Origin: a virus | Taxonomy: Duplodnaviria; Heunggongvirae; Uroviricota; Caudoviricetes | Virus record (IMG/VR): IMGVR_UViG_2690315922_000011 | Reading direction: 5' to 3' (one strand) | Length of the DNA: 8,388 nucleotides | Part shown: positions 1 to 8,388 of the stretch, one piece after another | Numbering within the stretch: position 1 is the first letter of the stretch | Layout: the number at the start of each line of letters is the position of its first letter | Notes under the pieces: model-generated | Seen by the model: only the letters and a program-made list of their open reading frames with translations | Databases searched by the model: none | Told to the model about the DNA's origin: nothing | Translations under genes and position numbers: made by a program

Positions 1-290
<290 letters not shown>

Positions 291-300
291 TCAAACATTA

Positions 301-2364
301 TTATTCCTCTGGGTAAGCTGAGCTAATCAGAGTGTCTTCTTGCATTCGATTAATGTGAGATGTAGTCCTTTCATCAATAATCTTTCCATCAAGAATTGTC
401 TGGGTAGTGACATTAATTGTCTGAGGCTTAATACTTACTGATGGTTTAATAACCTTTAAATCTTGAGTAAATGTTTCCACTCGACCTTTCAGATTATTTA
501 ATGACTCAGGTGAAAGCTGTGGAACATCTTTTGATTTACCCTGAACCATAGCCCATAAAACAGCGGCTAAAGAGTTCATGTCACCAGTTAATGCCTGGTC
601 TGTGGGTTCCACCTTTGCCCGTACAATTTTATCCATTGGATTATCGGACTTACTCATCTGACGTTCATAGAACGGTTTGACAATGGCATTAATCACATCA
701 GTTGCCATACCGACAATCATTACTTTGGTAATTGCATCAGCTACAGATAATTTCCCTTTACCACCTTCAACACTACCAGAGCGTGAATTAATTCTCCCTG
801 CTGCTGTATTCGCTACATTTCCAAGCGTGGAAATAGCCCTGATTAAGTTCCAGATACCACCTACAGCACCAATACCAGACCTCACAGCAACAATTCCAGC
901 AAGTCCCTTTAATGCACTTAACAGGCCATTTGCAATACCATCAGCCACAGTTTTTTGAGTGTCATTTAATTCTCTGTAAGCAAGGGTCACTCTGTCAAAG
1001 AATCCCTGCACTCGGTAGCTAATCGTGGTTAAATCATCAATACCGTTTGACATGCTTTTCATCAAGTCGCCAAAATGTTCACCAAGATTTTTAGATTGAC
1101 CACCCAGTGAATTAAGTAAATTAGTCAGTGACCTTGTAAAGTCTGTTAATCCTTCCTGTGAACCATCGAACATTAAGGCCAGATTATTATTCCATTCATT
1201 AGAAAGGCGACCTAACTGTGTCTGAGTAGAGTTAATAATCTTTTCCCATCCTCCCGCTTTATCAATCATCTTTCCCATTTCAGCGGATACTTTAGGGAGA
1301 ACATCTTTAGAAAGAACCTTACCGTCTTTCATAGCCTTGTCTAATTCTTCCGTAGTCATCCCAAGACTTCTGGCAAATAACTGAAAAGCACCTGCCATTC
1401 TGTCACCTAACTGACCGCGTAATTCTTCAGCCTGAATCTTTCCTTTAGATGCCATCTGCTCGAAAGCTTTTAAAATCCCGTTAATTTCATCGGTGCTTAG
1501 CCCCATTAATCTGGATGTGCCAATCACGTTGGAAAATAAGGATTCTTTCTGGCTTGTATCCATGTTACCAGCGCCAGCGGAAAACTTAGCGTAGCTTGAT
1601 AATGTTTCAATCTGGTCTACACCTGTTTTGCCAGCAAGACTCTTAACGAATTCTGTAGCTCGTTTAGCACCTTCATCACCTAAAACAAATTGTGCCGCTC
1701 GTTGTGATGCTTCTTTTTTCAAACCAATCTCCATCACCTTTCTGTAGGCTTCAAGGGCTGTTTGAAAACTATAAATGGCTGTACCTGCTTTAATTGCACT
1801 CGTGGCTAATACATCCAGACTATTTGAAGCATTTTCACTGTGATTACTTTTGCTGGTGGATGTGTGACCTCTGGACTTAATAAGAGCTTCACGTAGATTT
1901 TGATTTAACTTTGCCAGTTCACGATTAAAAGCTTCGTTTCCAAGTGTCTTAGCTTTGGAGCTCAGATTGTAATACTGCGCCTTGAACATTTTGGCTAACA
2001 GAGGGTCAATGCTATTTAGCTTGCTCATGTTCGAGCTATGCGCGGCTGTGATAGCTCTGTTGCCGCTAATTCGTGGTTGTCTAAGTGGCTTTAAAGTATC
2101 CTCAATTTCCGTTTTAATCTTAAACGCTTTAGTATTTTTAAGACGCTGCTCAATCTTGGAAATGGTTTTATCGACATTCTTTTCCATTACCTTGAGAGAG
2201 TCATTTAAAGGCGCAGGATTAACTTTAAAAGCTTTATTCAGTCGTTTCTCAATTCTTGATGCGATTTGCATCGTTTGTTTCTCGACTTTTTCCAGACCTT
2301 TTAAAACCTTCTGAGAGTTAAAACTTAACTCAATCAGAAAATCATCGACTTTAAATTGTGCCAT
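301..2364 (-). CDS. Phage tail tape-measure protein (tail length determinant)
   Basis: 687-aa ORF. K/E-rich coiled-coil-like N-terminus; segment LSTDEINGILKAFEQMASKGKIQAEELRGQLGDRMAGAFQLFARSLGMTTEEL resembles the conserved tape-measure core as I recall it; Gly/Ala-rich hydrophobic segment GLLSALKGLAGIVAVRSGIGAVGGIWNLIRAISTLG typical of these proteins. SD AGAGGTGA about 11 nt upstream of ATG 2364-2362. A downstream tail gene follows. Confidence 0.8.
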   Translation of the reverse strand: MAQFKVDDFLIELSFNSQKVLKGLEKVEKQTMQIASRIEKRLNKAFKVNPAPLNDSLKVMEKNVDKTISKIEQRLKNTKAFKIKTEIEDTLKPLRQPRISGNRAITAAHSSNMSKLNSIDPLLAKMFKAQYYNLSSKAKTLGNEAFNRELAKLNQNLREALIKSRGHTSTSKSNHSENASNSLDVLATSAIKAGTAIYSFQTALEAYRKVMEIGLKKEASQRAAQFVLGDEGAKRATEFVKSLAGKTGVDQIETLSSYAKFSAGAGNMDTSQKESLFSNVIGTSRLMGLSTDEINGILKAFEQMASKGKIQAEELRGQLGDRMAGAFQLFARSLGMTTEELDKAMKDGKVLSKDVLPKVSAEMGKMIDKAGGWEKIINSTQTQLGRLSNEWNNNLALMFDGSQEGLTDFTRSLTNLLNSLGGQSKNLGEHFGDLMKSMSNGIDDLTTISYRVQGFFDRVTLAYRELNDTQKTVADGIANGLLSALKGLAGIVAVRSGIGAVGGIWNLIRAISTLGNVANTAAGRINSRSGSVEGGKGKLSVADAITKVMIVGMATDVINAIVKPFYERQMSKSDNPMDKIVRAKVEPTDQALTGDMNSLAAVLWAMVQGKSKDVPQLSPESLNNLKGRVETFTQDLKVIKPSVSIKPQTINVTTQTILDGKIIDERTTSHINRMQEDTLISSAYPEE

Positions 2365-4214: not shown

Positions 4215-4283
4215 CTGAGGCCAGTAACCATGCGGGTTACAGAGGGAGTGAGACACCTTAGCAATAGGGTGGCTTACCTTTGA
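4215..4283. other. Two adjacent inverted repeats in the 158-bp intergenic region (candidate RNA structure or protein-binding site)
   Basis: GTAACC-atgcg-GGTTAC (4215-4231), then GAGTGAGAC (4237-4245) and GTCTCACTC (4275-4283), exact reverse complements around a 29-nt loop. The GTCTCA/TGAGAC core recurs in the repeats upstream of the recombinase. Confidence 0.4.
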
Positions 4284-5246: not shown

Positions 5247-5284
5247 AATAAATCAATTAAAGCTGGTGGAGTTTATTCACCAGC
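5247..5284 (-). terminator. Putative intrinsic terminator overlapping the 3' end of the replication gene
   Basis: GCTGGTG (5262-5268) and CACCAGC (5278-5284) are exact reverse complements around a 9-nt loop that contains the stop codon. On the minus strand the stem is followed by UUUAAUUGAUUUAUU. Confidence 0.4.
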
Positions 5285-6059
5285 CGTAATCATCTTCGAA
5301 ATCCGGTAACTCATCATCGTCACCATCACATAAATCATCATCTTCATCCGGGTCCGGTAATGGTTCATCATCGTCATCGATGGTGGGGCACGGTGTATTT
5401 TTCTGGTCACTAATAACAATCACATCAGAGTTTTTATTTCTTTGTTTATTAGCCTCTTCAGAGCTTGCTTCAAGGTCATCTAAAACAGTTTGTTTAATAG
5501 TCTCTTTAATTCCAAGAGAATCACATTCATGTGAATCACAGAGCGAAGCTCCATTCTTAACAGTCCCTTCTTCAAAGTCATCTTTCCTATTGTTATTAAT
5601 AAGTTCTTTTTGTTCTTTCTTGTTATTATACGTGTCAAGAATTTTGACTGACTGAGTAAAGAATTTTGACTCAGTGGGTAAAGAATTTTGACTCAGTGGG
5701 TCATCTTTTTTGACTGCTTTAGATTCCAGCTTTGCTTTTCGTGCTTCTTTGGCTGTAGGTTCAGTTAAAACCTCAGGAACTTCATCAAGCGAAAAGACTT
5801 CAATAATACACTGGTTGCTCGCAACGTTAGTTTTCCTAATTAAACCATACGCCTCAAGTCTTTTCATACATGCAATAACTGATGTTCTTGTGATTCCTGC
5901 ATACTGACCAAGATGAGCATAAGACGGTGTATAGTATTGACCTTTATCGTGATAGTATTTTTGCTCATTCAGCATGACGGTGTAGATAATACGGTCAGCC
6001 GCTTTAATTTTATTACTCATCTGATAAATACGGTCATCAAACATGTGAAACTTTTCCAT
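5277..6059 (-). CDS. Replication initiator, lambda O-like N-terminal winged-helix domain, with poly-acidic C-terminal tail
   Basis: 260-aa ORF with SD GAGGT 9 nt before the ATG. N-terminal region DRIIYTVMLNEQKYYHDKGQYYTPSYAHLGQYAGITRTSVIACMKRLEAYGLIRK matches the phage O N-terminal pattern (..LaelTGlsrrtv..al..Le..GlI) as I recall it. Tandem iteron-like repeats and an AT-rich tract lie inside the gene, as the lambda origin does within O. C-terminus DDDDEPLPDPDEDDDLCDGDDDELPDFEDDYGW. Confidence 0.65.
   Translation of the reverse strand: MEKFHMFDDRIYQMSNKIKAADRIIYTVMLNEQKYYHDKGQYYTPSYAHLGQYAGITRTSVIACMKRLEAYGLIRKTNVASNQCIIEVFSLDEVPEVLTEPTAKEARKAKLESKAVKKDDPLSQNSLPTESKFFTQSVKILDTYNNKKEQKELINNNRKDDFEEGTVKNGASLCDSHECDSLGIKETIKQTVLDDLEASSEEANKQRNKNSDVIVISDQKNTPCPTIDDDDEPLPDPDEDDDLCDGDDDELPDFEDDYGW
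5581..5721. repeat. Putative origin of replication: four tandem 22-bp iteron-like repeats plus adjacent AT-rich tract, inside the O-like gene
   Basis: Units at 5634-5655, 5656-5677, 5678-5699 and 5700-5721; the central two are identical (GTAAAGAATTTTGACTCAGTGG), the outer two diverged, all sharing TTTTGACT. Flanked at 5581-5633 by a roughly 75% A+T tract. Confidence 0.6.
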
Positions 6060-6393: not shown

Positions 6394-6540
6394 TCAGCCT
6401 AATCTTTCAGCAATTCTGTACGAGGTACTCAGGGGCATTCTGAGAGCCTCCGCAATGTACTTGATGGTTTTGCCCTCTGTTTCTGTTATCATCGGGCTTG
6501 CCTTATCAGGGCTTTGAAATGCCTCTGTAACTCCCCCCTC
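6394..6540 (-). pseudogene. Remnant of a serine-recombinase C-terminal HTH domain (truncated; N-terminal catalytic domain absent)
   Basis: Minus-strand frame reads ...FQSPDKASPMITETEGKTIKYIAEALRMPLSTSYRIAERLG-stop, with an in-frame stop upstream at 6541-6543. Compare the intact recombinase C-terminus GRPSKASPEAVQTLISQGKTRLQIQEELGISRATFYRLAK: shared KASP linker and STxYR-type HTH. Only 32 codons from the first ATG and no upstream start; it abuts hairpin repeat copy 1. Confidence 0.35.
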
Positions 6541-6541
6541 T

Positions 6542-6600
6542 TAACAGGAGAGAGGGTGATACATGAGACAAGAACCCTCCCTTCTTAAAAACCTTCTTGA
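6542..6600. repeat. Hairpin-containing direct repeat, copy 1 (~60 bp)
   Basis: Core GGAGAGAGGGTGATACATGAGACAAGAACCCTCC (6547-6580) matches copy 2 at 33 of 34 positions. Internal inverted repeat GAGGGT/ACCCTC (longer with mismatches) around a 16-nt loop that contains ATGAGAC. Flank similarity (ACC..CTTG..TCT) continues to about 6600. Confidence 0.6.
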
Positions 6601-6937
6601 CAATCTTTACAGACCTTGTTCAAGGTAATCACAATAGTTTTTCTTCCCTCGGCTTCCCGTGTTCCTCGGTTCGTTTATTGAGACCCTGAAAGACCCTGTA
6701 ACTCCTTCTTAACGGGAGAGAAAGAACATAGTGACCCCCAAGCGAAGCGCCCCTTTTAGTATGCTTTTTAATCACCATTTTAGCATTTAGTGCTTTTTAT
6801 TAAATTTAGCACTTTTTGCTAAAGACAAAACACTTGACAAATTGCTAAGATTGGACACATACCCCATCTTAACAGACTTTTAAGAGACTTTTAAACGGCC
6901 TGTTTAACCGGGTCACTATCCGGTTCTTCGTTCCCCC

Positions 6938-6951
6938 TCTATCTAGATAGA
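6938..6951. promoter_or_regulatory. 14-bp perfect palindrome TCTATCTAGATAGA (candidate operator or protein-binding site)
   Basis: The sequence equals its own reverse complement. Flanked by repeated CTGTTAAGA motifs (6953-6961, 6988-6996) and an AACCGG-n8-CCGGTT inverted repeat (6906-6925). Confidence 0.4.
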
Positions 6952-7081
6952 TACTGTTAAGATTTTTTAAGAAATCTCTTACGTCAACTGTTAAGATAAA
7001 CTTACCTTCCGTTAAAACAGTTCTGTCTAGCAATTTCATAATTGTCTGTCAAGTATCTTTGAAGGTACTATCAAGGGTCAC

Positions 7082-7145
7082 TAAGCGGGAGAGAGGGTGA
7101 TACATGAGATAAGAACCCTCCTGTTAAAAGACCACTTGGAAAGTC
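7082..7145. repeat. Hairpin-containing direct repeat, copy 2 (~60 bp)
   Basis: Core GGAGAGAGGGTGATACATGAGATAAGAACCCTCC (7088-7121); same orientation as copy 1, 541 bp downstream. Followed by the 13-bp palindrome AAGTCTGAGACTT (7140-7152). Confidence 0.6.
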
Positions 7146-7534
7146 TGAGACTTTAGTAAAATCTGTGAATACGGCTTCTCAGACGCTCTGTAACGCATTC
7201 TAGGCGATTTTACCCCCTTATTTTAAGGTGGGTGGTACATCCCTATAGACTACCCCTAAAAATGGGGTTAAAACTCGCTACAGAGCTTTCTATGAGATTA
7301 GCTTCTAATCGAATCAACTATGAGGCTTGGCAGAGTTGCATAAATTTTATACAGCACTTATTCAGCTTCTAAATTTTTTATAAAAATGACTAGCCCTTCT
7401 TCAGGTTCTCTTCCTCATTAACTCCCAAAAATATCTGTGAGTGTCTATACCCGTTTGGTAGCCCAGATTCACGATATAGCCCCTCCCTTGCAAAATCTGG
7501 AAATATCTGTCATATCCTTATGACTGTAGAATAA

Positions 7535-8083
7535 TCACTTCGCCAATCGGTAAAAGGTCGCTCTAGAGATGCCTAGCTCTTCCTGAATCTGCAACCTCGT
7601 CTTACCTTGTGAAATGAGCGTCTGAACAGCCTCTGGAGAAGCTTTTGAAGGTCGTCCCATGTGAACCCCTTCAGCTTTAGCACGCTCAATGCCAGCCTTT
7701 CTACGCTCACTGATAAGGTCTTTTTCAAGGTCAGCTAAGCCAGCCATCATAGTAAGCATTGCTTTACCGATTGCCGTAGACAAGTCGAACCCTTCACGCA
7801 ACGAAACAACCCTCACACCTTTAGCCTGTAGTGTCTCCACGTTAGAGAGTACATCAACAGTATTACGCCCTAAACGGTCAATCGCTGCCACAGCTAACGT
7901 ATCGTCACACCTTACATAGTTCATCATGTCTATAAAGCCATCTCTGTTGGTAGCCTTTGTAGTTCCTGAGACAGCTTCATCAATAAACCATTTATCGACC
8001 TTGTGAACCTTCTCTATCTGTAATTTCTGGTTGTCTATAGACTGCTCTCGTGTTGATACCCTGCAATAACCAATCACCGCCAT
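7535..8083 (-). CDS. Site-specific serine recombinase (small resolvase/DNA-invertase family)
   Basis: 182-aa ORF. N-terminal IGYCRVSTREQ with the catalytic-serine context; DRLGRN motif; C-terminal HTH GKTRLQIQEELGISRATFYRLAK. Size and layout match resolvase/Hin-Gin-type recombinases. SD-like GGGGGG 4 nt before the ATG. Confidence 0.9.
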   Translation of the reverse strand: MAVIGYCRVSTREQSIDNQKLQIEKVHKVDKWFIDEAVSGTTKATNRDGFIDMMNYVRCDDTLAVAAIDRLGRNTVDVLSNVETLQAKGVRVVSLREGFDLSTAIGKAMLTMMAGLADLEKDLISERRKAGIERAKAEGVHMGRPSKASPEAVQTLISQGKTRLQIQEELGISRATFYRLAK

Positions 8084-8097
8084 ACATCCCCCCTAAG

Positions 8098-8237
8098 TAG
8101 TCTCAAAAGTAAGTCTCATAAGTTTAGCTGTCTCATAATTCAAAAACAAGCTTATGAGACACTTAGAAGATGCATTCTACCGTTGCGTTGAAGGCGTCTC
8201 ATAAGGACTTCCTTTTGAGACTAACTTAGAAGGTGCA
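8098..8237. promoter_or_regulatory. Repeat array upstream of the recombinase gene: putative res-like recombination/operator site with three sub-sites
   Basis: GTCTCA(A/T)AAG motifs at 8100-8109, 8113-8122, 8130-8139, 8196-8205 and, inverted, at 8151-8160 and 8214-8222. Sub-site B is TGTCTCATAA-n13-TTATGAGACA (8129-8161); sub-site C is GTCTCATAAG-n8-TTTTGAGAC (8196-8222). An additional direct repeat ACTTAGAAGRTGCA lies at 8161-8174 and 8223-8236. Layout resembles Tn3-family res sites, which sit immediately upstream of the resolvase gene. Confidence 0.45.
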
Positions 8238-8388
8238 ATGTGCAAAACAGTTATGTTGCTTATTATTACCTCTTGCAACTGAAAAACCATGTGACCAGAT
8301 AACTGCATAGCGTTATATAGTCCTGTAAATAGCGGTTTATAAGAGTCGAGAGAGAGATGACTAACAACTGCATAGTTTTACTGATAAG

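What the first reader, a model, noticed from the sequence alone, without database searches (positions are those of the whole stretch)
8098..8237. Three-sub-site array of GTCTCATAAG-type repeats directly upstream of the serine recombinase gene
Six copies of a 9-10-bp motif in both orientations are arranged as one direct pair and two inverted pairs with different spacers (13 bp and 8 bp), spanning about 125 bp and ending about 15 bp before the recombinase SD. This matches the architecture of res sites, where the resolvase binds three sub-sites and autoregulates its own promoter, pointing to a resolution system rather than a simple invertase. The same TGAGAC/GTCTCA core reappears at 7140-7152, in the loops of the hairpin repeats, and at 4237-4283, suggesting the recombinase or another protein recognising this core acts at several places in the element.
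Basis: partly seen in the sequence, partly recalled or inferred. Interest (0 to 1): 0.45.

Follow-up and report, generated by a model that had tools for sequence, protein, structure and literature searches.

The report
Resolvase binding-site array (res-like site)
The six short repeats in front of this small recombinase gene are real and conserved across many gut-bacterial species, and they look like an ordinary "res" site where the enzyme would cut joined copies of a small mobile island back into single copies while repressing its own gene.

Summary
GTCTCAWAAK occurs six times in the window, only at 8100-8221 (0.1 expected). This lies directly upstream of the 182-aa serine recombinase gene (7535-8083, minus strand).

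Read on the gene strand, the array has three parts:
- a distal inverted pair with crossover-site geometry (site I, 8195-8222);
- after a 33-bp spacer holding a promoter-like -35/-10, a wider inverted pair (site II, 8129-8161);
- after 5 bp, two head-to-tail half-sites (site III, 8099-8123), ending 6 bp before the ribosome-binding site.

Sub-site sizes and the II-III gap (28 / 33 / 5 / 25 bp) nearly match Tn3/gamma-delta res (28 / 34 / 5 / 25). The I-II gap is longer, 33 versus 22 bp.

Sixteen homologous loci in other Enterobacterales keep all six half-sites at fixed spacing. Their spacers diverge and the DNA upstream of site I is unrelated. These islands share essentially only this gene-plus-array module. 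No second crossover-like site lies within 10 kb of any locus, which argues against an invertase. One relative carries a hybrid site I whose junction sits at the site centre.

The claim that the core recurs functionally elsewhere in the window is not supported.

Verdict: a predicted resolvase-res system on an excisable island, ordinary in kind, with a Sin-like head-to-tail proximal sub-site. Nothing has been tested experimentally.

The parts
7535..8083 (-). Small serine recombinase gene (182 aa): N-terminal catalytic domain plus C-terminal helix-turn-helix
   Evidence: Pfam Resolvase (E 5.7e-40) and HTH_7 (E 7.7e-09). Best solved-structure matches are gamma-delta and Tn3 resolvase (E 2e-23 to 1e-21), then Gin invertase (E 3e-20). 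Y6, R8, S10, the DRLGR motif and the ER pair that aligns with gamma-delta E124/R125 are present, and are conserved in 20 homologues.
8088..8093 (-). Shine-Dalgarno-like GGGGGG, 4 nt before the ATG
   Evidence: Read directly from the sequence.
8099..8123 (-). Site III (proximal accessory sub-site, 25 bp on the Tn3 scale): two half-sites, 8100-8109 and 8113-8122, in head-to-tail orientation
   Evidence: half-sites. Both are conserved in the same orientation in all 17 aligned loci. No inverted partner is detectable.
8129..8161 (-). Site II (accessory sub-site, 33 bp): inverted half-sites 8130-8139 and 8151-8160 around a T-rich 11-bp spacer
   Evidence: Spacer identity among clade representatives is 0.68, against 0.55 for all non-core columns of the array.
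8174..8202 (-). Promoter-like element. The -35 ATGAGA (8202-8197) lies inside the right half of site I; after 17 nt comes the -10 TAGAAT (8179-8174). Sites II and III would then lie in the 5' leader.
   Evidence: 9 of 12 matches; the number of such hits in the region is not above shuffle expectation. The -10 is kept as TAGAAT, CAGAAT or AAGAAT in the window, L001, L010, L017-L021, L023, L024 and L020. It is absent in the L011-L015 clade, L022 and L025.
8195..8222 (-). Site I (putative crossover sub-site, 28 bp; 26 bp from G to C): inverted half-sites 8196-8206 and 8211-8221. The central dinucleotide is at 8208-8209 (AG on the gene strand).
   Evidence: It is the outermost conserved element; alignable sequence stops at its outer edge. 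L019 carries a hybrid site whose junction is at the centre.
8224..8237 (.). One copy of the 14-nt direct repeat ACTTAGAAG(A/G)TGCA. The other copy is at 8161-8174. Each abuts the outer end of a half-site that points toward the gene. Its role is unknown and it may not belong to the system.
   Evidence: family D11, 13 of 14 identical. It is only weakly conserved in distant relatives.

Best explanation
Region 8099-8222 is the cognate res site of the adjacent small serine recombinase.

Proposed binding (inferred): recombinase dimers bind three sub-sites. Site I is a 28-bp inverted repeat and is where strand exchange would occur, at the central dinucleotide 8208-8209. Sites II and III are accessory sites. 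Site III has its two half-sites head-to-tail, as in Sin site II.

Proposed action (inferred): the window belongs to a roughly 10.7-kb island that is integrated by a separate large serine integrase and encodes its own replication initiator. When two copies of the array lie in direct repeat on one supercoiled circle, the accessory sites would assemble a synaptosome that permits exchange only between the two site I copies. Such circles could be multimers formed while the excised island replicates, or after it is transferred as a concatemer. The result would be conversion of multimers to monomers. In the integrated single-copy state the site is silent for recombination.

Proposed regulation (inferred): the -35 overlaps site I, and sites II and III lie in the leader, so binding should also repress the recombinase's own transcription.

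Shown: the repeats, their geometry, their conservation, their exclusive linkage to the gene, and the intact catalytic residues.
Inferred: binding, resolution, autoregulation, and the biological substrate.
For: 1. Six half-sites occur only here, far above chance.
2. All six half-sites are conserved in the same order, orientation and spacing in 17 loci from at least 12 genera, with recombinases 63-91% identical. The alignment is gap-free apart from a 1-nt indel in the I-II spacer. Half-site cores are 88% identical, the other array columns 55%, and the upstream flank 31%.
3. Apart from a divergent tape-measure homologue in four of them, the recombinase is the only window protein these islands share, so the array travels with the gene. 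tblastn finds none of the window's other proteins in those loci, and other cargo differs.
4. The geometry is 28 / 33 / 33 / 5 / 25 bp (site I, spacer, site II, spacer, site III). Site I is distal and site III abuts the start codon. The I-II centres are 63.5 bp apart, about 6 helical turns. Tn3/gamma-delta is 28 / 22 / 34 / 5 / 25, with a stated tolerance of 4-7 turns and the same orientation relative to the gene.
5. The half-site (A/T)GTCTCAAA resembles the Tn3 site III-left half-site TGTCTGATA.
6. Head-to-tail accessory half-sites have a structural precedent in Sin site II.
7. Catalytic residues are intact in all 20 homologues.
8. No second site-I-like inverted pair lies within 10 kb in 19 loci; for L006 this covers the whole island.
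9. In L019 the left half of site I differs from its nearest relative at 5 of 13 positions, against 6 of 110 for the rest of the array (Fisher p = 0.002). It still resembles a half-site, and the junction is at the site centre. This is what a crossover at site I with a diverged partner site would leave.
10. The island encodes an O-like replication initiator.
11. SGI1 is an experimentally shown precedent for a resolvase-res system that removes multimers of an integrative island.
Against: - No experiment exists. Binding, recombination and repression are all inferred.
- A three-sub-site res whose site III is head-to-tail fits neither of the two described types exactly.
- The Tn3 'R interface' residues R2, R32, K54 and E56 correspond here to A2, K31, Y56 and R58. 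A Tn3-style synaptosome therefore cannot be assumed.
- Related islands that carry the module (L012, L017) have no replication gene recognisable by Pfam. A need for multimer resolution is thus not evident for every member.
- The promoter match is weak (9 of 12), is not statistically enriched, and is absent in the L011-L015 clade.
- Homology among relatives ending at the edge of site I does not by itself show site-specific exchange. It would also be seen if site I were simply the outer limit of a conserved block.
Confidence: 0.65

Rival explanations
1. The array is only an operator. The protein, through its helix-turn-helix domain, acts mainly as an autorepressor or island regulator, and recombination at the site is vestigial.
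For: A promoter-like -35/-10 is embedded in the array and two sub-sites lie in the leader. The L011-L015 clade has a seventh half-site where the -10 lies in other clades. Several relatives have no obvious replication function that would call for resolution.
Against: All catalytic residues, including the Ser10 nucleophile, are conserved in 20 homologues down to about 50% identity. The distal pair keeps exact crossover-site geometry (26 bp from G to C) in all loci. L019 has a hybrid site I with its junction at the centre. In known res systems repression and recombination coexist, so this rival is more an addition than an alternative.
Confidence: 0.12
2. Site I is a site for intermolecular exchange rather than for resolution. 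The recombinase would fuse or swap DNA between islands, plasmids or a helper phage, shuffling the integrase and attachment-site module that lies next to site I in the excised circle.
For: Several pairs of islands that are more than 90% identical for 1-5.7 kb downstream lose all similarity exactly at the outer edge of site I (offset 0 or -1; sequences). The integrase type differs among islands carrying the same module: a large serine integrase in L006 and L012, a tyrosine integrase in L005 and L017. L019 has a hybrid site I.
Against: Accessory sites normally impose intramolecular resolution and disfavour fusion. No site-I-like pair is present in the Felix O1 reference genome. Edge-of-block boundaries are also expected from ordinary homologous recombination. 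Rare res-by-res exchange over evolutionary time is compatible with the best explanation and does not require a dedicated function.
Confidence: 0.1
3. It is a DNA invertase system. The distal inverted pair is a hix/gix-like crossover site, and a partner site elsewhere defines an invertible segment.
For: PHROG and NCBIfam label the protein family 'DNA invertase' or 'Mpi-like', with the NCBIfam score far below its cut-off. Gin is nearly as close as gamma-delta resolvase. The 26-bp site I has the same overall geometry as hix/gix sites (my recollection, not checked here).
Against: No second inverted pair with site I geometry lies within 10 kb in any of 19 loci, including the complete island L006. 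The crossover-like site is flanked by four further conserved half-sites, which invertase sites lack. No orientation variants of adjacent DNA were seen among relatives.
Confidence: 0.04
4. The repeats are iterons or operators for another island protein, such as the replication initiator or one of the helix-turn-helix proteins, and merely lie next to the recombinase gene.
For: The island has an O-like initiator and small helix-turn-helix proteins. Similar palindromes (GTCTCAAAA..TTTTGAGAC) occur on an unrelated viral contig with no recombinase gene among its six annotated ORFs (L030).
Against: The array is conserved in islands that lack homologues of every other window protein except, in four of them, a divergent tape-measure protein. 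Its geometry is that of serine-recombinase sites. More distant homologues have a different half-site sequence together with a different recognition helix (L003: AGCTCAAA with ISPASVKRA, against GTCTCAAA with IS(R/K)ATFYRL).
Confidence: 0.03

Closest known systems
Tn3 / gamma-delta resolvase with its 114-bp res site
   Same: - A small serine recombinase of about 180 aa with catalytic domain plus helix-turn-helix, aligning end to end with gamma-delta resolvase (E 2e-23).
- The site lies immediately upstream of the gene, with site I distal and site III next to the start codon.
- Three dimer-sized sub-sites of 28 / 33 / 25 bp against 28 / 34 / 25, and a 5-bp II-III spacer in both.
- The half-site starts (A/T)GTCT.A.A, like Tn3 TGTCTGATA.
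- The gene's promoter lies within the site.
   Different: - Site III half-sites are head-to-tail, not inverted.
- The I-II spacer is 33 bp (about 6 turns between centres) instead of 22 bp (about 5 turns).
- The central dinucleotide is non-palindromic (AG, CT or TC across relatives) instead of AT.
- The Tn3 R-interface residues are not conserved.
- There is no Tn3-family transposase. The host element is an integrative island.
Sin resolvase with resH (and the related beta-recombinase six site)
   Same: An accessory sub-site with head-to-tail half-sites bound by a dimer. Y56 and R58 occupy the alignment positions of gamma-delta K54 and E56. equates the E56 position with Sin R54, one of the residues (F52, R54) implicated in contacts between regulatory and catalytic tetramers. 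Y-x-R is invariant in 20 homologues. The F52 to Y56 equivalence is my inference.
   Different: Sin res has only two dimer sites and needs HU or IHF in the spacer. Here there are six half-sites, and no IHF consensus lies in the array. Sequence similarity to Sin is weaker (E 2e-14) than to gamma-delta.
SGI1 Res / res resolution system (Sci Rep 2025, PMC12217951)
   Same: A Tn3-like resolvase and an upstream three-box res on an integrative genomic island of Enterobacterales that has its own replication origin. It has been shown experimentally to remove island multimers. Its central dinucleotide is also non-AT.
   Different: SGI1 is mobilised by conjugation with IncA/C plasmids. The present island has phage tail genes and no recognised transfer functions. 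SGI1 box III is a weakly symmetric inverted site, with spacers of 22 and 2 bp. No sequence relationship between the two systems was tested here.
Hin / Gin DNA invertases with hix / gix sites
   Same: The same protein superfamily, with Gin at E 3e-20. The crossover site is a 26-bp inverted repeat whose half-site resembles TTATCAAAAACC (my recollection, not checked here).
   Different: Invertases use two isolated crossover sites in inverted orientation plus a Fis-bound enhancer. Here there is a single site per locus with adjacent accessory recombinase sites.

Membership tests
Small serine recombinases (resolvase/invertase family; Pfam PF00239 + PF02796) | N-terminal catalytic domain with the serine nucleophile and conserved Tyr, Arg and Asp residues | tested here: met
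   Pfam Resolvase E 5.7e-40. Y6, R8, S10, D69, R70, R73 and the ER pair aligning with gamma-delta E124/R125 align with gamma-delta resolvase and are invariant in 20 homologues.
Small serine recombinases (resolvase/invertase family; Pfam PF00239 + PF02796) | C-terminal helix-turn-helix DNA-binding domain | tested here: met
   HTH_7 E 7.7e-09, residues 143-179.
Tn3/gamma-delta-type res site | Located directly upstream of the resolvase gene, with site I distal and site III adjacent to the start codon | tested here: met
   Order read on the gene strand; criterion as stated.
Tn3/gamma-delta-type res site | Three dimer-binding sub-sites of about 28, 34 and 25 bp | tested here: met
   28, 33 and 25 bp from the half-site coordinates; reference values.
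Tn3/gamma-delta-type res site | Every sub-site is an inverted repeat of the binding motif | tested here: not met
   The site III half-sites (8100-8109, 8113-8122) are in direct orientation in all 17 loci, and no inverted partner is present.
Tn3/gamma-delta-type res site | The centres of sites I and II are separated by an integral number (4-7) of helical turns | tested here: met
   63.5 bp, about 6.0 turns at 10.5 bp per turn. The spacing is invariant to within 1 nt in 17 loci. Criterion.
Tn3/gamma-delta-type res site | Part of a Tn3-family transposon (adjacent transposase, terminal inverted repeats) | tested here: not met
   The island's gene content has no DDE transposase. Integration is by a large serine or a tyrosine integrase.
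Tn3/gamma-delta-type res site | Recombination only between directly repeated sites on one supercoiled molecule, giving a two-noded catenane | not testable with these tools
   Requires in vitro or in vivo recombination assays.
Sin/beta-type res site | The accessory site has head-to-tail half-sites | tested here: met
   Site III; feature as described.
Sin/beta-type res site | Only two dimer sites, with an HU/IHF-bent spacer between them | tested here: not met
   Six conserved half-sites make up three dimer sites. No IHF consensus, even with one mismatch allowed, lies inside 8084-8260. Non-specific HU binding cannot be excluded.
DNA invertase systems (Hin/Gin/Cin/Pin) | Two crossover sites in inverted orientation flanking an invertible segment next to or around the gene | tested here: not met
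   No second inverted pair with site I geometry lies within 10 kb in 19 loci.
DNA invertase systems (Hin/Gin/Cin/Pin) | Fis-dependent recombinational enhancer | not tested
   No reliable sequence test is available here.
Island multimer-resolution systems (SGI1 type) | The host element excises and replicates, so multimers can arise | tested here: inconclusive
   The window island encodes an O-like replication initiator next to a 1.5-kb repeat-rich non-coding stretch, and a separate integrase. Replication was not shown, and relatives L012 and L017 have no recognisable initiator.

The most novel reading that the evidence does not exclude
The resolvase-res module is the common backbone of an undescribed family of small Enterobacterales islands. 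These may be phage satellites or anti-phage defence islands. The one in the window carries Felix O1-type tape-measure and baseplate genes but no capsid or terminase genes.

The module's job would be to cut concatemers into monomers after transfer. Such concatemers could arise by headful packaging into a much larger helper capsid, or by rolling-circle replication. Site I would also be the point at which integrase modules and cargo are exchanged between islands.
Probability: 0.2. Interest if true: 0.6.

Novelty: new variant of a known kind. Interest (0 to 1): 0.35.

Why it matters
The site itself is a textbook kind of element: a resolvase gene preceded by its res site. Its value is practical.

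- It gives an exact, testable 124-bp substrate for an uncharacterised resolvase clade, with a predicted crossover dinucleotide.
- It offers a natural hybrid architecture, Tn3-like in having three sub-sites and Sin-like in its head-to-tail accessory site. This could inform how accessory-site geometry sets synaptosome topology.
- It flags a conserved module that marks a widespread set of small mosaic islands. About 9.5% of complete E. coli genomes (516 of 5426) match the recombinase region. Cargo in these islands includes Shedu and SIR2 defence genes and Felix O1-like tail genes.

If the module resolves transferred concatemers, it would explain how satellites without capsid remodelling recover unit-length genomes.

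Tried and rejected
1. Other GTCTCA sites in the window as additional recombinase targets. Rejected: chance frequency, poor half-site scores, no pairing, and not co-inherited with the gene.
2. A partner crossover site for inversion. None within 10 kb in 19 loci.
3. A target site in the presumed helper phage. The whole Felix O1 genome was scanned and has no site-I-like inverted pair. Only that one reference genome was checked.
4. An IHF site in the I-II spacer, as a Sin-like requirement. None found.
5. Known RNA families in the window. None at gathering threshold.
6. Near-identical DNA in plasmids. None. In phages, only window 1-209 matches Felixounavirus.
7. An exact-pattern scan of viral contigs for site I. 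It gave two further copies of the same island type (L029, L031) and one unrelated Firmicutes-like contig with similar palindromes and no recombinase among the six ORFs annotated (L030). That hit is uninformative for function.
8. Literature on a Felix O1-type satellite or on resolvases in phage satellites. Nothing found in the searchable library.
9. More distant plasmid homologues (44-54% identity: L002, L003, L032, L033). By eye, L002, L003 and L032 show analogous arrays with other half-site sequences. These were not analysed rigorously and are not used as evidence.
10. The megablast end-points at 8222 or 8240 in E. coli were first read as breakpoints at site I. The more sensitive search shows that many E. 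coli islands continue upstream to about 8366-8388. Only the cross-species comparison is therefore used for the boundary argument.

Full report
**1. What is in the sequence**

The only long ORF next to the finding is 7535-8083 on the minus strand. It encodes 182 aa with a Pfam Resolvase catalytic domain (E 5.7e-40) and an HTH_7 domain (E 7.7e-09). The region 8084-8260 is therefore its upstream region.

The pattern GTCTCAWAAK matches six times in the whole window, all between 8100 and 8221. The shuffle expectation is 0.10, and no shuffle reached six. A weight-matrix scan of 8070-8270 finds exactly these six half-sites and no weaker ones.

Read 5' to 3' on the gene strand, the order is:
- an inverted pair, 8221-8211 and 8206-8196 (26 bp from G to C);
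- a 33-bp spacer;
- an inverted pair, 8160-8151 and 8139-8130 (31 bp from G to C, with a T-rich centre);
- two further half-sites, 8122-8113 and 8109-8100, in the same orientation as the one before them;
- 6 bp, then GGGGGG, 4 nt, and the ATG.

Two details need correction. The distance to the SD is 6 bp, not 15. And 8224-8237 is not a motif copy but one copy of a separate 14-nt repeat.

**2. Where the window comes from**

The exact recombinase protein is encoded on several public contigs. In a 4.5-Mb chromosome (L006) the window is part of an island of about 10.7 kb, inserted between mdtG/msyB and lpxL. The core chromosome is 87% identical to E. coli mdtG. Core homology ends about 340 bp beyond site I, which is about 176 bp past the end of the window.

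The island holds:
- the small recombinase;
- a 1.5-kb non-coding, repeat-rich stretch;
- an O-like replication initiator (window 5277-6059);
- several small proteins of unknown function;
- a tape-measure protein (301-2364);
- a Dit-like or baseplate protein that is 77% identical in amino acids to Felix O1 ORF165, which explains the 87% nucleotide match of window 1-209 to Felixounavirus;
- a large serine integrase at the far end.

About one tenth of complete E. coli genomes contain related sequence. 545 of 5426 match some part of the window, and 516 match the recombinase region. All matches are chromosomal.

**3. Comparative test of the array**

A scan of one genome per species returned 16 loci whose recombinases are 63-91% identical. 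They come from Escherichia albertii, Rahnella, Klebsiella, Mixta, Erwinia, Leclercia, Pantoea, Buttiauxella, Enterobacter, Biostraticola, Serratia, Mangrovibacter and Kosakonia. A Klebsiella pneumoniae locus at 69% came from the plasmid collection, in a record that in fact carries chromosomal genes.

In all of them except L016, where an IS has removed the distal part, the upstream region aligns with the window without gaps. The alignment runs from the outer edge of the distal pair to the last half-site, apart from a 1-nt indel in the long spacer.

The half-site consensus is GTCTCAAAAGG, and every one of the six positions is occupied in the same orientation in every locus. Among clade representatives the mean pairwise identity is:
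- 0.88 in the half-site cores;
- 0.55 in the other array columns;
- 0.31 in the 60 columns upstream, which is essentially unrelated sequence.

tblastn with the window's other proteins finds no homologue in these loci, apart from a divergent tape-measure protein in four of them. Annotated examples carry quite different cargo. L012 has a Shedu SduA_C gene and an upstream large serine integrase. L017 has SIR2, IrrE/M78, HNH and a tyrosine integrase. L005 has a capsid protein and a tyrosine integrase.

The array and the recombinase gene are therefore inherited as one module. This is the strongest available argument that the recombinase is the protein that reads the repeats.

**4. Geometry compared with known sites**

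Adding one flanking base to each half-site, which is the Tn3 convention, gives:

| Element | Window | Size here | Tn3/gamma-delta | SGI1 |
|---|---|---|---|---|
| Site I | 8195-8222 | 28 bp | 28 | 28 |
| I-II spacer | | 33 bp | 22 | 22 |
| Site II | 8129-8161 | 33 bp | 34 | 30 |
| II-III spacer | | 5 bp | 5 | 2 |
| Site III | 8099-8123 | 25 bp | 25 | 25 |

The total here is 124 bp. In both reference systems box I is distal and box III is adjacent to the start codon. The I-II centre distance there is usually 5 helical turns, and 4-7 turns are tolerated. Here the centres are 63.5 bp apart, about 6 turns, and the II-III centres are 34 bp apart.

The half-site start (A/T)GTCTCAAA resembles the Tn3 site III-left motif TGTCTGATA.

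The clear departure is site III, whose two half-sites are head-to-tail. That arrangement is known from Sin site II, where a dimer binds direct repeats asymmetrically and is catalytically inert. However, Sin res has only two dimer sites plus an HU/IHF-bent spacer, and no IHF consensus is present in this array. The array therefore fits neither described type exactly. It has Tn3-like number, sizes and placement, with a Sin-like proximal accessory site.

**5. Resolvase or invertase**

Sequence similarity alone does not decide this. Gamma-delta and Tn3 resolvase score E 2e-23 to 1e-21 and Gin scores 3e-20. Library labels such as 'DNA invertase' or 'Mpi family' are generic or far below cut-off.

The site arrangement does decide it. 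No second inverted pair with site I geometry occurs within 10 kb on either side in any of 19 loci, including the complete island L006. The crossover-like site also has four conserved accessory half-sites beside it.

The catalytic residues are intact in all 20 homologues: Y6, R8, S10, DRLGR, and the ER pair aligning with gamma-delta E124/R125. This argues against a purely regulatory, domesticated protein.

The Tn3 R-interface residues are not conserved. Y56 and R58, which are invariant, occupy the positions of gamma-delta K54 and E56. equates the second of these with Sin R54, one of the residues (F52, R54) implicated in contacts between the regulatory and catalytic tetramers. This is a hint only, and the F52 to Y56 equivalence is my inference.

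**6. Traces of recombination at site I**

In pairwise blastn between loci, several pairs are 90-96% identical for 1-5.7 kb downstream but lose all similarity exactly at the outer edge of site I (offset 0 or -1). Examples are L011/L012, L012/L014, L012/L015, L013/L015 and L017/L024. Other pairs continue 250-6200 bp further.

In the excised circle, the segment next to site I is the attachment site and integrase region. Integrase types do differ among islands with the same module.

By itself this shows only that site I is the outer limit of the conserved block. L019 is more specific. Its left half-site plus one base (GTGTCGAAAGT-C) differs from its closest relative L021 at 5 of 13 positions. The rest of the array differs at 6 of 110 (Fisher p = 0.002). 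The left half still resembles a half-site, and the switch falls at the central dinucleotide. This is what exchange at site I with a diverged partner site would leave.

The central dinucleotide varies among clades (AG, CT, TC). It is non-palindromic, as in SGI1 (AC).

**7. Regulation**

The consensus scan finds -35 ATGAGA (8202-8197), a 17-nt spacer, and -10 TAGAAT (8179-8174) on the gene strand. The -35 lies within the right half of site I. Sites II and III would then be in the leader.

The -10 is retained as TAGAAT, CAGAAT or AAGAAT in the window, L001, L010, L017-L021, L023, L024 and L020. The L011-L015 clade instead has a seventh half-site there, and L022 and L025 also lack it. The match is weak, and the number of such hits in the region is not above expectation. 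Autorepression is therefore a reasonable inference from position, by analogy with Tn3/gamma-delta, and is not demonstrated.

**8. The claim of further sites of action**

Six GTCTCA hexamers lie outside the array, against about 4 expected for the whole window. None matches the 10-mer. The best single half-site score outside the array is inside the tape-measure gene, and none is paired.

The hairpin-repeat region (6465-7013) and the segment 8286-8366 occur in many E. coli genomes that lack the recombinase. Islands with the recombinase module lack those regions.

**9. Most likely function**

The best reading is a res site for a resolvase that converts island multimers to monomers and represses its own gene.

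A need for this is plausible. The island has its own initiator and a separate integrase. It has no capsid or terminase genes, so any phage-mediated transfer in a helper capsid of about 86 kb would carry concatemers. A satellite that packages concatemers without remodelling the capsid is documented (PICMI; PMC10803314). A resolvase-res system that clears multimers of an integrative island is documented experimentally for SGI1.

This biological role is inference. Relatives without a recognisable initiator are a caveat.

**10. Verdict**

The kind of element is known. The variant architecture (head-to-tail site III, six-turn I-II spacing) and the host element (a widespread, apparently undescribed family of small mosaic islands) give moderate interest. 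Confidence that the array is the recombinase's binding-site array is about 0.9. Confidence that it functions as a resolution site is about 0.65.

Noticed in passing
window 1-2364 and beyond the window start (L006 15478-18409): The island carries a tape-measure gene (30% aa identity to Felix O1 ORF160, with a 183-nt core at 77% nt identity). It also carries a Dit-like/baseplate gene 77% aa and 81-87% nt identical to Felix O1 ORF165, in the same order as in the phage. It has no capsid, terminase or other tail genes. This suggests a satellite of, or a tail-assembly decoy against, Felixounavirus. No paper on this was found.
   Followed up: partly
L006 about 9520-20250; window = part of it: The island is about 10.7 kb, lies between mdtG and lpxL, and is integrated by a 509-aa large serine recombinase at the end opposite the small recombinase. 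Related sequence occurs in 545 of 5426 complete E. coli genomes, always chromosomal and highly mosaic.
   Followed up: partly
L012 12768-13430; L017 11149-15099: Islands that share only the recombinase-plus-array module carry anti-phage genes. L012 has Shedu SduA_C. L017 has SIR2_2, IrrE/M78 with Beta_protein, and HNH. This points to a family of small defence-carrying islands built on this module.
   Followed up: partly
window 8161-8174 and 8224-8237: A 14-nt direct repeat, ACTTAGAAG(A/G)TGCA (13 of 14 identical). Each copy abuts the outer end of a half-site that points toward the gene (site II-left and site I-left). It is only weakly conserved in distant relatives and its meaning is unknown.
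   Followed up: no
window 6540-6580, about 6708-6721, and 7081-7121: Repeated hairpin-forming elements of about 41 nt (GAGGGT..ACCCTC stems) lie in the 1.5-kb non-coding stretch between the initiator and recombinase genes, possibly an origin or RNA elements. There is no Rfam match. The region 6465-7013 also occurs in E. coli genomes that lack the recombinase.
   Followed up: partly
window 8286-8366: This segment upstream of the array occurs alone, without a recombinase, in many E. coli genomes. It is also conserved in L029 and L031. It may be an island-end or attachment-related element.
   Followed up: no
L016 about 9700-9966: An IS3-like insertion has removed sites I and II of the array in Pantoea dispersa. 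Only the two proximal half-sites and an intact recombinase gene remain.
   Followed up: no
L011-L015, array columns 38-49: This clade has a seventh half-site (GGTCTCGAAAGG) in the I-II spacer, at the place where other clades have the TAGAAT-type -10.
   Followed up: no
window 8196-8221 versus L010 9864-9889: The central tetranucleotide of site I in the window (AAGT on the gene strand) is the reverse complement of that in the 91%-identical E. albertii relative and three other clades (ACTT). The window's site I matches theirs better when flipped (24 of 26 against 22 of 26, counted by hand). So the polarity of the crossover site relative to the accessory sites may not be fixed.
   Followed up: no
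L030 2242-2267 and about 2430-2457: An unrelated viral metagenome contig of 7.6 kb, with endolysin-type genes, has two 26-bp palindromes of the form GTCTCAAAA..TTTTGAGAC upstream of a DUF6591 gene. None of the six ORFs annotated on it is a recombinase.
   Followed up: partly
L001/L005 (NZ_CP084170.1): The Klebsiella record labelled as a 120-kb plasmid consists largely of core chromosomal genes (purR, sodB, tyrS, nth, rsx). It is probably a chromosome fragment, not a plasmid.
   Followed up: no
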